64,000 nucleotides of DNA from the human T2T-CHM13v2.0 reference genome, Homo sapiens. This document shows positions 56,501 to 58,731 of the stretch, piece by piece. The notes beneath the pieces are model-generated. The model saw nothing but the letters and a program-made list of their open reading frames with translations, was not told the DNA's origin and made no database searches. The stretch lies in NCBI RefSeq assembly GCF_009914755.1, contig NC_060940.1. The stretch is one strand, 5' to 3'. The translations under genes and the position numbers were made by a program. The stretch's first letter is position 1; every line of letters starts with the position of its first letter.

Positions 56501-58731
56501 GGCAAGGACTTCATGTCTAAAACACCAAAAGCAATGGCAACGAAAGCCAAAATTGACAAATGGGATCTAATTAAACTAAAGAGCTTCTGCACAGTAAAAG
56601 GAACTACCATCAGAGTGAACAGGCAACCTACAGAATGGGAGAAAATTTTTGCAATCTATCCATCTGACAAAGGGCTAATATCCAGAATCTACAATGAACT
56701 CAAACAAATTTACAAGAAAAAAACAAACAACCCCATCAACAAGTGGGTGAAGGATATGAACAGACACTTCTCAAAAGAAGACATTTATGCAGCCAAAAGA
56801 CAAATGAAAAAATGCTCATCATCACTGGCCATCAGAGAAATGCAAATCAAAACCACAATGAGATACCATCTCACACCAGTTAGAATGGCGATCATTCCAA
56901 AGTCAGGAAACAACAGGTGCTGGAGAGGATGTGGAGAAATAGGAACACTTTTATACTGTTGGTGGGACTGTAAAGTAGTTCAACCATTGTGGAAGTCAGT
57001 GTGGCGATTCCTCAGGGATCTAGAACTAGAAATGCCATTTGACCCAGCCATCCCATTACTGGGTATATACCCAAAGGATTATAAATCATGCTGCTATAAA
57101 GACACATGCACACGTATGTTTATAGCAGCACTATTCACAATAGCAAAGACTTGGAACCAAGCCAAATGTCCAACAATGATAGACTGGATTAAGAAAATGT
57201 GGCACATATATACCACAGAATACTATGCAGCCATAAAAAATGATGAGTTCATGTCCTTTGTAGGGACATGGATGAAGCTGGAAACCATCATTCTCAGCAA
57301 ACTATCACAAGGACAAAAAACCAAACACCGCTTGTTCTCACTCATAGGTGGAAATTGAACAGTGAGAACACATGGACACAGGAAGGGGAACATCACACAC
57401 CCGGGCCTGTTGTGGGGTCGGGGGAGGGGGGAGGGATAGCATTAGGAGATGTGCCTAATGTTAAATGACGAGTTAATGGGTGCAGCACACCAACATGGCA
57501 CATGTATATATATGTAACTAACCTGCACATTGTGCACATGTACCCTAAAACTTAAAGTATAATAATAAAAAAAACTTTCTTTTTTTCTTTATTTTTGAGA
57601 CAGTCTCCCTCTGTCGCCTAGGCTGGAATGCAGTGGCGTGCTCTCAGCTCACTGCAATCTCCGCCTACTGGGTTCAAGCTATTCTTGCACCTCAACTTTT
57701 GTAGTAGCTGGGACTACACATAGGCACCACTGTGGCTTCCTCTTTTTTTTTTTTTTTTGAGACGGACTCTCGCTCTGTCGCCCAGGCTGGAGTGCAGCGG
57801 CACCATCTCGGCTCACTGCAAGCTCCGCCTCCCGGGTTCACGCCATTCTCCTGCCTCAGCCTCCCAAGTAGCTGGGACTACAGGCGCCCGCCACCACACC
57901 CTGCTAATTTTTTGTATTTTTAGTAGAGACGGGGTTTCACCGTGTTAGCCAGGATGGTCTCAATATCCTGACCTCGTGATCCACCCGCCTCGGCCTCACA
58001 AAGTGCTGGGATTACAGGAGTGAGCCACCGTGCCCGGCGTCTTTTTTTTTTTTTTTTTTTTTTTTTTTTTTTAGGCAACCTTGCTATGTTGCCTGGGCTG
58101 GTTTCAAACTCCTGGGTTCAATTGATCCCCCTGCTTTGGCCTCCTTGTTTTATTATTACTCTGTATTTTTACTTTAGGCATACAGCCAGTCATACTAAAT
58201 TGGATAAACACTTAAATGTACATATTAGAAAATTATAATCGATGACCTAAGTTTCCAAAGAAAGAATTTACTGAAAATGTACAAAATTACCAAAAGAGGA
58301 AGCAGTAGGGAAGAGGAAAATTAATGAAAATTAATGAAAGAGGTAAAACTTGTGGAACAATTGAGGTTAAGAAAGATACACAAGAACTGGTACTTTGTAA
58401 TGGAAAGTAATACATCTTAATAAAATTCTACAGGATGCATTAGGTAGTTCATACATTCTTTTCTCCACTTAAAGTGTTGACTTTAGGTAGATGATCCTTG
58501 TATGGGACTCACGGCTGCCATTTTACATTTGAAATTCAAGAGTCCAACTTCAAAGTACCCATGAATGCCCTAACACAATTTACCGGTGAAAAACAGCTGC
58601 TGCTCCAACAATCTGTACCTCTGTGTTTGTGCTTTAAACTTTGACACACTATTGAGAAAAAGCAAGGGAAGTAGCATTGTAAGAGAAAAAGCTGATGGGA
58701 ACTTACCACCTGAAGTGCCGTCCAAATTCAT
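46513..58731 (-). CDS. CPHXL: Cytoplasmic polyadenylated homeobox-like, spliced CDS join(58707-58731,50555-50748,46513-47511), 405 aa
   Basis: Three exons sum to 1218 nt in frame: [85 protein letters not shown]...RTQMQQL*. Single homeodomain split before WFQN. Confidence 0.93.
47101..47316 (-). repeat. Coding tandem repeat, 51 bp / 17 aa, about 4.2 copies
   Basis: [17 protein letters not shown] / [17 protein letters not shown] / [17 protein letters not shown] / [17 protein letters not shown] / SSYL. Confidence 0.9.
48390..49130. mobile_element. MER21-family LTR in CPHXL intron 2
   Basis: cagatcccacaggtcgagggctcagtcc...aaaggatattacaaaagatacagatgaagagatgcatagggtgagatatggggg. Confidence 0.75.
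49160..51410 (+). repeat. Segmental duplication block A, copy 2
   Basis: Matches 1-2790; similarity is interrupted at the L1 insertion. Confidence 0.93.
50555..50748 (-). CDS. CPHXL: CPHXL exon 2, homeodomain N-terminal part
   Basis: tgtcag|GTTTCCCA...GTGATAGAT|gtaagt; 194 nt. Confidence 0.93.
51678..51860 (-). other. L1 antisense ORF0 remnant, 60 aa with intact ATG
   Basis: [23 protein letters not shown]...GVGPSEPG...IRVGVT* resembles primate L1 ORF0, shortened by a TGA. Confidence 0.75.
53513..57358 (+). pseudogene. L1 ORF2 (endonuclease/reverse transcriptase), frameshifted
   Basis: Track ORFs 53513-54145, 54123-54476, 54640-54975, 55171-56283 and 56252-57358 are consecutive ORF2p pieces in different frames. 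Confidence 0.93.
58707..58731 (-). CDS. CPHXL: CPHXL coding exon 1 (MNLDGTSG+G)
   Basis: aagATGAATTTGGACGGCACTTCAGGTG|gtaagt; phase 1; 24/25 identical to DUXB exon 1. Confidence 0.87.

What the first reader, a model, noticed from the sequence alone, without database searches (positions are those of the whole stretch)
57585..58160. CPHXL looks like a chimeric gene: DUXB promoter and exon 1 fused to a CPHXL2-type body at an intronic Alu
Seen: left of this Alu (skipping the later L1), CPHXL intron 1 matches CPHXL2 intron 1 up to its antisense Alu at about 2805. Right of it, the sequence matches DUXB intron 1, exon 1 and promoter, starting inside DUXB's antisense Alu (shared caccactgtg and gggttcaattgatcc). 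CPHXL exon 1 (MNLDGTSG) is 24/25 identical to DUXB exon 1 and unlike CPHXL2's candidate exon 1 (MSSQ). Both first introns are phase 1, so the fusion stays in frame. Inference: the CPHX-DUXB unit was duplicated, then Alu-Alu recombination removed the intervening DNA (about 30 kb in the present-day template), placing a CPHX homeobox under DUXB regulation. I cannot tell whether this has been published.
Basis: partly seen in the sequence, partly recalled or inferred. Interest (0 to 1): 0.85.

Follow-up and report, generated by a model that had tools for sequence, protein, structure and literature searches.

The report
CPHXL is a DUXB–CPHX fusion gene
The human early-embryo homeobox gene CPHXL is a fusion gene: it uses the promoter and first exon of its neighbour DUXB, joined to the body of a CPHX gene at a recombined Alu repeat, and this appears to have happened in an ancestor of monkeys and apes.

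Summary

- **CPHX-type part.** CPHXL 45771-51412 (exons 2-3 and the proximal part of intron 1) is paralogous to CPHXL2.
- **DUXB-type part.** CPHXL 58149-60147 (distal intron 1, exon 1, promoter) is paralogous to DUXB.
- **Junction.** The two blocks meet in one old antisense Alu (57576-58144). Its T-tail sits in CPHXL2-type flank. Its truncated other end, and the flank beyond it, are those of the DUXB intron-1 Alu. A later Alu (57743-58039) and a full-length L1 (51415-57574) were inserted into it.
- **Exon 1.** It is 24 of 25 coding bases identical to DUXB exon 1, has the same splice donor, and is phase 1.
- **Direction of transfer.** Seven non-simian CPHX proteins start MAS-, like CPHXL2's MSSQ. 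Four non-simian DUXB proteins start M-D/E-L-. Six simian CPHXL proteins, including Aotus, carry the DUXB-type start. The chr10 paralogous locus agrees.
- **Transcript.** The published 8-cell-embryo cDNA primers map exactly to the two ends of the gene model.
- **New here.** CPHXL keeps the ancestral flanks on both sides, so it looks like the parental copy that lost about 30 kb. DUXB and CPHXL2 lie in the daughter copy.
- **Literature.** Five full-text searches found no paper describing the fusion.
- **Limits.** The crossover point within the Alu, the intermediate state and any regulatory effect remain untested.

The parts
45771..51412 (-). CPHX-type block of CPHXL: 0.65 kb of 3' flank, exon 3 (46420-47511), intron 2, exon 2 (50555-50748) and the proximal 0.66 kb of intron 1. 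It is paralogous to CPHXL2 (-8128..2796).
   Evidence: Colinear BLAST blocks at 80-92% identity. K2P 0.06-0.18. The 20 bases ahead of the exon 2 acceptor are identical.
51415..57574 (+). Full-length L1 (6.16 kb), antisense to the gene, inserted into the T-tail of the junction Alu after the fusion. It is absent from CPHXL2.
   Evidence: The 5' end, the poly-A and a putative 8-base target duplication at 51407-51414 / 57576-57583 were read. Its reading frames are broken: the longest are 210, 370 and 368 aa.
57576..57742 (-). Junction (hybrid) Alu, tail and right-monomer part. The tail lies in CPHXL2-type flank. From about 57718 onward the sequence is DUXB-Alu-like. The crossover lies somewhere within 57576-57718.
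   Evidence: Three-way alignment against 41 window Alus. Over 57597-57717, identity ranks are CPHXL2 Alu 21st and DUXB Alu 16th of 43, which is uninformative. Over 57718-57735 the DUXB Alu ranks 1st of 42.
57743..58039 (-). Younger Alu nested in the T-rich linker of the junction Alu, followed by a T-run at 58040-58072 that includes its target duplication.
   Evidence: Sequence read. It differs from the window Alu consensus at 8.5% of positions, against 27.8% for the host Alu.
58073..58144 (-). Junction Alu, left-monomer part. It is DUXB-type and truncated at the same position as the DUXB intron-1 Alu.
   Evidence: Shared non-consensus bases and the shared truncation. The DUXB Alu ranks 1st, tied with one other Alu, of 43.
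58149..58706 (-). DUXB-type distal part of CPHXL intron 1.
   Evidence: Aligns to DUXB 33098-33682 with K2P 0.165. Also homologous to intron 1 of the chr10 DUXBL pseudogene.
58707..58779 (-). CPHXL exon 1, of DUXB type. It encodes MNLDGTSG plus one base (phase 1).
   Evidence: 24 of 25 coding bases identical to DUXB 33683-33707, with an identical donor. The published forward cloning primer maps to 58759-58779.
58780..60147 (-). DUXB-type promoter and upstream region. It holds a TATA box at 58816-58823, a GC box, a GGATTA site near 58870 and a match to the DUX4-type consensus at 59212-59222.
   Evidence: Aligns to DUXB 33751-35139, with 98 of 100 identical at 58821-58920. The motif consensus sequences are recalled from memory, not taken from a tool.
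60263..60592 (.). Upstream flank beyond the duplication boundary. It is homologous to the upstream flank of the chr10 DUXBL pseudogene and absent next to present-day DUXB.
   Evidence: 62-64% identity over 311-368 columns, E about 1e-18 to 1e-19, colinear with the promoter matches. It has no counterpart elsewhere in -30 kb..+74 kb.
39969..45770 (.). 3' flank of CPHXL beyond the CPHXL/CPHXL2 boundary. It holds blocks homologous to the 3' flank of the chr10 CPHX pseudogene (39969-40207, 44915-45197, 45430-45653, 45667-45794).
   Evidence: Colinear matches at 65-69% identity. CPHXL2 has no such blocks left of -8128.
35140..45770 (.). The 10.6 kb lying between the two copies of the unit. It is not duplicated.
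   Evidence: No non-Alu paralogy to the rest of the 104 kb.
2791..3079 (-). Parental-type Alu in CPHXL2 intron 1. It is full length at its head end.
32520..32779 (-). Parental-type Alu in DUXB intron 1, head-truncated. The chr10 paralogue has no Alu at this site. A later Alu at 32820-33092 lies beside it.
   Evidence: The chr10 blocks 32176-32513 and 33108-33329 lie 45 bases apart on chr10 and 595 bases apart here.
33683..33750 (-). DUXB exon 1, the source type of CPHXL exon 1.
   Evidence: Orthologue N-termini.
9278..9300 (-). CPHXL2 exon 1 (MSSQ), the ancestral CPHX type.
   Evidence: The stretch 9204-9609 is homologous to chr10 80926353-80926812, upstream of the CPHX pseudogene's exon 2. 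Non-simian CPHX proteins start MAS-.

Best explanation
CPHXL is a chimeric gene that arose in the simian lineage.

Inferred starting state: on the minus strand, DUXB lay upstream of a single CPHX gene. Each gene had an old antisense Alu in its phase-1 first intron.

Inferred step 1: a unit running from about 1.4 kb upstream of DUXB to about 0.65 kb downstream of CPHX (43 kb today) was duplicated. The new copy landed about 10.6 kb further downstream, next to TERF2IP.

Inferred step 2: in the parental copy, recombination between the two Alus removed about 30 kb. The lost DNA held DUXB exons 2-5, the intergenic DNA, and the CPHX promoter and exon 1.

Shown result: one hybrid Alu remains, and it joins the DUXB promoter, exon 1 and distal intron 1 to CPHX exons 2-3 in frame. 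Also shown: the transcript starts at the DUXB-type TATA promoter, and eight DUXB-type codons replace the four ancestral CPHX codons ahead of the homeodomain.

Inferred only: CPHXL is driven by DUXB-type regulation, including DUX4 input.

Later insertions: a younger Alu in the hybrid Alu's linker and a full-length L1 in its tail.
For: 1. Two colinear paralogy series meet in one Alu.

2. The junction Alu has CPHXL2-type flank at its tail. At its head it has the DUXB-Alu truncation, the DUXB-type flank and shared non-consensus bases.

3. Exon 1 is 24 of 25 identical to DUXB exon 1, the donor is identical, and both introns are phase 1.

4. Nothing non-repetitive in the CPHXL locus matches the roughly 30 kb between the template Alus.

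5. The direction of transfer is fixed by orthologues.
- Of 25 CPHX-family hits, 6 carry the DUXB-type start. All 6 are simian: Homo, Pongo, Nomascus, Colobus, Macaca and Aotus.
- 7 start MAS-. All 7 are non-simian: Choloepus, Tamandua, Orycteropus (two proteins), Trichechus, Cynocephalus and Eulemur.
- The other 12 lack an exon 1 or have a different predicted start.
- Of the 11 DUXB hits whose sequences were read (12 were returned), 6 have an N-terminus. All 6 are M-N/D/E-L-type, including horse, two seals and mouse lemur.

6. The chr10 paralogous locus agrees. The DUXBL pseudogene carries the DUXB-type promoter, exon 1 and intron 1. The CPHX pseudogene carries CPHXL2-type intron 1 and exon 1 region. 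There is no Alu at the DUXB-Alu site.

7. CPHXL's flanks beyond both duplication boundaries match the chr10 flanks. Those of DUXB and CPHXL2 do not.

8. All 11 simian CPHX proteins form one clade (support 100/100), apart from the 7 non-simian rows.

9. The published 8-cell-embryo cDNA primers map to 58759-58779 and 46420-46439. The forward primer has no match in DUXB exon 1 within 3 mismatches.

10. The core promoter is 98 of 100 identical to DUXB's and shares the TATA box, GC box, GGATTA site and a DUX4-type consensus match. Passages in one paper treat CPHXL as a DUX4 downstream gene (PMC12691587). Passages in another name CPHXL and DUXB together among 8-cell genes induced on OTX2 knockout (PMC12909843).
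Against: - The first 120 bases or so of the junction Alu are no closer to the CPHXL2 Alu (74.4%, rank 21 of 43) than to the DUXB Alu (75.0%, rank 16) or to unrelated Alus. The only derived state shared with CPHXL2 is one dinucleotide near 57686. The CPHX parentage of that part therefore rests on position alone.
- The copies are 10.6 kb apart, so a plain tandem duplication does not fit.
- No intermediate with two complete units was seen.
- Divergence is a mosaic: K2P 0.06-0.18 for CPHXL against CPHXL2 and 0.11-0.19 for CPHXL against DUXB. Equal age of the two joins cannot be shown, and gene conversion has probably acted.
- Orthologue N-termini come from database gene models, some flagged low quality. 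Pan paniscus CPHXL2, Rhinopithecus bieti CPHXL, Microcebus and Acinonyx have other predicted starts.
- The flank matches to chr10 are weak, at 62-69% identity.
- No tarsier CPHX protein was recovered, and the position of Aotus within the simian clade is unresolved.
[quoted passage not shown] A regulatory shift is not demonstrated.
Confidence: 0.82

Rival explanations
1. Same end product, made in one complex replication-based event. Alu-guided template switching would have happened during the duplication, so a second complete DUXB-CPHX unit never existed.
For: The copies are not adjacent: 10.6 kb of unduplicated DNA lies between them. No intermediate was seen. None of the simple one-step unequal-crossover schemes I worked through reproduces the observed gene order. 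That was reasoning from the layout, not a computation.
Against: The chimeric copy keeps ancestral flanks on both sides. That is what a deletion in place predicts. A newly synthesised composite inserted elsewhere would not be expected to have them.
Confidence: 0.15
2. A CPHX duplicate with its own exon 1 had its 5' end overwritten by ectopic gene conversion from DUXB. No 30 kb deletion was involved.
For: The patchy divergence suggests conversion does act in this cluster: K2P is 0.059 at 49169-49631 against 0.15-0.18 in the neighbouring blocks.
Against: Conversion needs homology on both sides, and CPHX and DUXB 5' regions share none apart from Alus. The DUXB-type tract runs on into a DUXB(L)-type ancestral upstream flank at 60263-60592, so it is not a patch. 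No remnant of a CPHX-type exon 1 or promoter lies upstream of CPHXL.
Confidence: 0.04
3. The DUXB-like exon 1 is the ancestral CPHX first exon. Either CPHXL2 acquired a new one, or DUXB took its exon 1 from CPHX.
For: None found here.
Against: Seven of 7 informative non-simian CPHX proteins start MAS-. Six of 6 DUXB proteins with an N-terminus start M-N/D/E-L-, including Laurasiatheria and a lemur. On chr10 each pseudogene carries its own type of 5' end.
Confidence: 0.03
4. The exon 1-to-exon 2 join is an annotation or PCR artefact, for example mispriming on DUXB or template switching between similar cDNAs.
For: The ends of the RefSeq model coincide exactly with the PCR primers, so the model is an amplicon.
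Against: The forward primer matches only CPHXL exon 1; its 2 window matches within 3 mismatches both lie at 58759-58796. The splice donor is intact. Independent gene models in 5 other simians encode the same junction. The TFE (transcript far 5' end) that PMC4944136 lists for CPHX1 was not mapped to this assembly.
Confidence: 0.02

Closest known systems
Alu recombination-mediated deletion, and Alu-Alu rearrangements that create fusion genes (a known class in primate genomes; this characterisation is recalled, not checked in a paper here)
   Same: Two Alus in the same orientation, one chimeric Alu left at the junction, loss of the DNA between them, and an in-frame join of two genes across introns of the same phase.
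   Different: The deletion acted on one copy of a duplicated two-gene unit, so neither parental gene was lost. The product is a fixed, expressed transcription-factor gene shared by monkeys and apes. The crossover point cannot be read from the sequence.
The CPHX-DUXB/DUXBL paralogous cassette (Leidenroth & Hewitt 2010, PMC3004920; Zhong & Holland 2011, PMC3141429; Commun Biol 2026, PMC13558733; passages and one section read)
   Same: These papers report linkage of CPHX-like genes with DUXB on chr16 and with DUXBL on chr10 or mouse chr14. They use CPHX as a marker of a segmental duplication.
   Different: The passages read do not mention that CPHXL shares DUXB's promoter and exon 1, nor the Alu junction. 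They treat CPHXL as a neighbour or anchor gene. The word 'chimer' occurs 0 times in PMC13558733.
CPHX1/CPHX2 as embryo genome activation factors (Tohonen 2015, PMC4569847; Madissoon 2016, PMC4944136; EMBO Rep 2024, PMC10933267; passages, two sections and Table 1 read)
   Same: The same genes (CPHX1 = CPHXL, CPHX2 = CPHXL2). The cDNA clones define the exons used here.
   Different: These papers describe CPHX1, DUXB and CPHX2 as a cluster with high CPHX1/CPHX2 protein similarity. The text read does not comment on the differing first exons or on their origin. Their supplementary figures were not seen.
New genes made by capture of a promoter and first exon from another gene (a general class; recalled)
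   Same: A coding body comes under a foreign promoter and gains a short foreign N-terminus.
   Different: Donor and recipient are neighbouring, distantly related homeobox genes that are already active at the same embryonic stage. The regulatory change may therefore be small.

Membership tests
Alu-Alu recombination product (hybrid Alu at a deletion junction) | Two parental Alus in the same orientation at the two template sites | tested here: met
   Antisense Alus at 2791-3079 (CPHXL2 intron 1) and 32520-32779 (DUXB intron 1).
Alu-Alu recombination product (hybrid Alu at a deletion junction) | A single Alu at the junction whose two flanks match different parental sites | tested here: met
   The tail flank is CPHXL2-type once the L1 is removed. 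The head truncation and the flank beyond it are DUXB-type.
Alu-Alu recombination product (hybrid Alu at a deletion junction) | A switch of parental diagnostic bases inside the Alu body | tested here: inconclusive
   DUXB-type derived bases run from about 57718 to the head end. The first 120 bases or so carry 9 CPHXL2-private and 8 DUXB-private differences and one dinucleotide shared with CPHXL2.
Alu-Alu recombination product (hybrid Alu at a deletion junction) | The undeleted state seen in an outgroup or sister lineage | not testable with these tools
   No primate genomes other than this one are held. The intact paralogous unit serves only as a stand-in.
Chimeric (fusion) gene | 5' part derived from one gene and 3' part from another, with the direction established | tested here: met
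   Paralogy blocks. Orthologue N-termini. The chr10 locus.
Chimeric (fusion) gene | The join is in frame and is transcribed and spliced | tested here: met
   The joined coding sequence is 1218 bases and open to its final stop codon, and both introns are phase 1. The primers of the published embryo cDNA map to exon 1 and to the end of exon 3. No RNA reads were examined here.
CPHX family of PRD-like homeobox genes | A homeodomain encoded by exons 2-3, with orthologues named CPHXL | tested here: met
   The database protein identical to the window's carries Pfam PF00046 (precomputed). The hits include named CPHXL and CPHXL2 proteins.
DUX4-responsive promoter | A DUX4 binding site bound by DUX4, and induction by DUX4 | not tested
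   Only a match to the recalled consensus was found, at 59212-59222 and at DUXB 34158-34168. Passages in PMC12691587 list CPHXL among DUX4 downstream genes. No binding data were seen.

The most novel reading that the evidence does not exclude
CPHXL sits at the original DUXB promoter and keeps the full ancestral upstream flank. Today's DUXB would then be the daughter copy, with its upstream region cut off 1.4 kb from the start site. If so, the simian lineage re-used the native DUXB control region to drive a CPHX homeodomain protein. That would add a second, differently regulated CPHX factor to the DUX4-triggered programme of embryonic genome activation. Differences between CPHXL and DUXB expression would then map to the sequences lost from DUXB.
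Probability: 0.35. Interest if true: 0.7.

Novelty: new member of a known kind. Interest (0 to 1): 0.6.

Why it matters
CPHXL (CPHX1), CPHXL2 and DUXB are among the few transcription factors switched on at human embryonic genome activation. They are studied as independent genes.

- **Regulation.** CPHXL carries DUXB's promoter and first exon. This gives a concrete reason to expect the two to be co-regulated. It also points to a 100-base core promoter that has stayed 98% identical as the element to test.
- **Read assignment.** 5'-end based read assignment between the two genes needs care, because their first exons are nearly identical.
- **Gene history.** CPHXL becomes a dated example, before the split of New World and Old World monkeys, of a new developmental regulator made by Alu-mediated exon and promoter capture.
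- **Orthology.** CPHXL2, not CPHXL, keeps the ancestral CPHX 5' end, while CPHXL keeps the ancestral position. This bears on orthology statements in comparative work on the DUX/CPHX loci.

Tried and rejected
- **Locating the crossover.** I used a three-way alignment polarised by 41 window Alus and identity ranks. The tail-side 120 bases are uninformative. Only the bound 57576-57718 can be given.
- **One-step unequal crossover.** I considered crossover between the two Alus with either ancestral gene order. Both predict a different gene order, or a second copy of the flank, which the self-comparison does not show. Rejected by reasoning.
- **Simple tandem duplication.** Rejected, because 10.6 kb of unduplicated DNA separates the copies.
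- **Further paralogy.** I looked upstream of CPHXL (60148-74000) and in the 35140-45770 stretch. Only dispersed repeats turned up.
- **Matches of the CPHXL2-DUXB intergenic region to chr10.** These fall on the minus strand at sites also hit by other window stretches, so I treated them as repeats.
- **The unmasked chr10 comparison.** It was swamped by Alu hits and its output was cut. I repeated it with masking.
- **The protein tree.** It did not resolve whether Aotus CPHXL groups with catarrhine CPHXL, so it does not date the duplication against the New World monkey split.
- **GGATTA sites upstream of CPHXL2.** They lie in Alus and were disregarded.
- **Literature.** Five full-text searches and passages from 11 papers gave no description of the fusion. 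Supplementary figures S3 and S4 of PMC4944136 and Supplementary Data 6 of PMC4569847 were not seen and might show the exon structures side by side.
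Full report
**What was checked**

The window is human chr16 (T2T). It holds CPHXL2, DUXB and CPHXL, all on the minus strand. I read the junction and its two proposed templates. I compared the window with itself. I then added 30 kb to the left and 10 kb to the right from the same assembly, and 70 kb of the paralogous chr10 locus.

The CPHXL locus has two series of non-repetitive, colinear, same-strand matches.
- **To CPHXL2.** The series runs from 45771 ~ -8128 (0.65 kb beyond the 3' end) through exon 3, intron 2 and exon 2 to 51412 ~ 2796. 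Identity is 80-92%.
- **To DUXB.** The series runs from 58149 ~ 33098 to 60147 ~ 35139. It covers the distal 0.56 kb of intron 1, exon 1 and 1.4 kb of upstream sequence. Identity is 80.7% over 2088 columns.

After masking Alu and L1 over 104 kb, 10 of the 17 self-matches of 80 bases or more belong to these two series. The other 7 are local repeats. Nothing non-repetitive in the CPHXL locus matches the roughly 30 kb that separates the two template points. That stretch holds the rest of CPHXL2 intron 1, CPHXL2 exon 1 and promoter, the intergenic DNA and DUXB exons 2-5.

**Anatomy of the junction**

Between the two series lie four elements.
- A full-length L1 at 51415-57574 on the plus strand. 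Its reading frames are broken.
- The tail half of an old antisense Alu at 57576-57742.
- A younger Alu at 57743-57039+1000, that is 57743-58039, with a T-run behind it.
- The head half of the old Alu at 58073-58144.

The L1 has a putative 8-base target duplication and sits in the Alu's T-rich tail. With the L1 removed, the CPHXL2-type flank abuts the tail just as it does at 2791 in CPHXL2.

At the other end, the old Alu stops at the same truncated position as the DUXB intron-1 Alu (32520-32779). The same flank follows it. In DUXB a later Alu (32820-32092+1000, that is 32820-33092) and a microsatellite expansion have been added at that point. The CPHXL2 Alu is full length at that end.

Against a consensus of 41 other window Alus, the junction Alu shares a run of derived bases with the DUXB Alu from about 57718 to its head. 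The DUXB Alu is its best match there. It ranks 1st of 42 over 57718-57735 and 1st, tied with one other Alu, of 43 over 58075-58145.

The first 120 bases or so do not discriminate. The CPHXL2 Alu ranks 21st and the DUXB Alu 16th of 43. There are 9 CPHXL2-private and 8 DUXB-private differences, and one dinucleotide shared with the CPHXL2 Alu. The crossover is therefore bounded to 57576-57718 and not located more closely. The CPHX parentage of the tail rests on position.

The junction Alu and the DUXB Alu are among the most diverged of the 44 Alus compared, at 27.8% and 21.1% from the window consensus. The nested Alu stands at 8.5%.

**The exons**

- The exon 1 coding part is 24 of 25 identical to DUXB's.
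- The 10 bases after the donor are identical.
- The coding parts of exon 1 are 25 bases (CPHXL and DUXB) and 13 bases (CPHXL2), so all three first introns are phase 1.
- CPHXL and CPHXL2 have identical sequence ahead of exon 2.
- The joined CPHXL coding sequence is open to its final stop codon (all).

**Which way the exon moved**

A protein search with CPHXL exon 3 returned 25 hits. Their starts were read.
- Six carry the DUXB-type start, and all six are simian: Homo, Pongo, Nomascus, Colobus, Macaca fascicularis and the New World monkey Aotus.
- Seven start MAS-, and all seven are non-simian: two xenarthrans, three afrotherian proteins, colugo and Eulemur.
- Twelve are fragments or have another predicted start. 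These include Pan paniscus CPHXL2, Rhinopithecus bieti CPHXL, Microcebus and Acinonyx.

Human CPHXL2's MSSQ resembles the MAS- type.

A search with DUXB exon 5 returned 12 hits. I read 11 of them. Six have an N-terminus, and all six are of the M-N/D/E-L type. They include horse, two seals and Microcebus.

The chr10 locus agrees with this direction.
- The DUXBL pseudogene has homologues of the DUXB promoter, exon 1 and intron 1.
- The CPHX pseudogene has homologues of CPHXL2 intron 1 and of the CPHXL2 exon 1 and promoter region (9204-9609).
- The chr10 blocks on either side of the DUXB Alu site lie 45 bases apart on chr10, against 595 here. The Alu is therefore an insertion in an old intron.

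In a protein tree, the 11 simian rows form one clade (100/100) apart from the 7 non-simian rows. Relationships within the simian clade are unresolved.

These are database gene models, not transcripts.

**Transcript support**

Table 1 of Madissoon et al. 2016 (PMC4944136) gives the primers used to clone CPHX1 from 8-cell embryos.
- The forward primer maps to 58759-58779, which is the start of exon 1. Its only other match within 3 mismatches is the adjacent 17-base duplicate. It does not match DUXB.
- The reverse primer maps to 46420-46439, which is the end of exon 3.

The RefSeq model is therefore this amplicon, and the splice join was seen in cDNA.

**History**

The duplicated unit is -8128..35139, about 43 kb. 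The second copy is 45771..60147. Between them lie 10.6 kb that are not duplicated.

Beyond both boundaries, CPHXL's flanks match chr10.
- 60263-60592 matches the upstream flank of the DUXBL pseudogene.
- 39969-40207 and 44915-45794 match the 3' flank of the CPHX pseudogene.
- All are colinear, at 62-69% identity.

DUXB has no such block beyond 35139. CPHXL2 has none beyond -8128, where Alus and then TERF2IP follow.

I infer, with moderate confidence, that CPHXL is the parental copy that suffered the deletion, and that DUXB and CPHXL2 lie in a daughter copy placed next to TERF2IP.

The one-step crossover schemes I worked through do not give the observed gene order. A single replication-based event cannot be excluded.

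K2P is 0.165 for the DUXB-type intron part and 0.06-0.18 for the CPHX-type blocks. This fits a simian-age event followed by later gene conversion between CPHXL and CPHXL2.

**Function**

The core promoter at 58821-58920 is 98 of 100 identical to DUXB's, while the neighbouring sequence is about 80-85% identical. The two promoters share a TATA box, a GC box, a GGATTA site and a match to the DUX4-type consensus about 0.44 kb upstream. The consensus sequences are recalled. That upstream stretch is part of a dispersed repeat: most of the 40 genome matches scored fall on the query part that holds it.

Passages in three papers bear on regulation.
- PMC12691587 treats CPHXL as a DUX4 downstream gene.
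- PMC12909843 names CPHXL and DUXB together among 8-cell genes induced on OTX2 knockout.

The regulatory consequence is therefore a reasonable inference, not a result.

**Novelty**

I ran five full-text searches. I read passages, sections or tables from 11 papers, including the DUX-family surveys of 2010, 2011 and 2026 and the papers that cloned these genes. They report the linkage of CPHX genes with DUXB and DUXBL. None mentions the shared promoter and exon 1 or the Alu junction. Some supplementary figures were not available to me.

Alu-mediated deletion and gene fusion are a known kind of event. This instance, in a gene of human embryonic genome activation, appears to be undescribed.

Noticed in passing
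window 58763-58796: A 17-base tandem duplication at the start of CPHXL exon 1, at the transcription start, is absent from DUXB. It is what makes the published forward primer specific to CPHXL.
   Followed up: partly
window 49169-49631 against 49633-50230: Divergence between CPHXL and CPHXL2 is a mosaic. K2P is 0.059 in one intron-2 block, 0.15-0.18 in the next two, and 0.08 around exon 2. This suggests later gene conversion between the two genes.
   Followed up: partly
window 35161-35593 and 37795-38259: Two direct repeats of about 450 bases, 88% identical and 2.2 kb apart, look like the LTRs of an old retroviral-type element. The first starts 21 bases beyond the duplication boundary at 35139.
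   Followed up: no
G000:C10:80887490-80896995 and 80903612-80912707 (L020-L023): At the chr10 locus, a 9.3 kb stretch holding the DUXBL-type exon 1, promoter and upstream flank is duplicated at 90-92% identity. The second copy has no homeobox exons behind it, so it is an orphan promoter. The CPHX pseudogene lies to its right. On chr10 the order of transcription is CPHX, then DUXBL.
   Followed up: partly
window 47100-47316: CPHXL exon 3 contains an internal tandem repeat with a period of about 102 bases (77% identity between copies). It encodes the repeated serine- and glutamine-rich blocks seen in the protein.
   Followed up: no
window -5160..-41 (L007): CPHXL2 intron 2 holds about 5.1 kb that CPHXL lacks between 49115 and 49123. 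Whether this is an insertion or a deletion was not determined.
   Followed up: no
window 10793-11523 ~ 22825-23275, and 21522-22659 ~ 42707-43466: Two colinear same-strand pairs at 66-78% identity lie outside the main paralogy. They are probably copies of old dispersed repeats, but an older local duplication is not excluded.
   Followed up: no
protein P0005 (Macaca fascicularis, named CPHXL2, flagged low quality): This protein carries the DUXB-type start and groups with the Old World monkey CPHXL proteins in the tree, so the name looks wrong. Its C-terminus follows the CPHXL2-type reading frame.
   Followed up: partly
window 59115-59230: The upstream stretch holding the DUX4-type consensus match has dozens of dispersed matches across the genome. 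It is therefore repeat-derived. DUXB shares it, so it predates the duplication.
   Followed up: no
Papers PMC4584094 and PMC4569847: Earlier statements that humans have no CPHX gene, or that CPHX1 and CPHX2 are primate-only, do not fit the database hits named CPHXL in xenarthrans, afrotherians, colugo and a cat.
   Followed up: no
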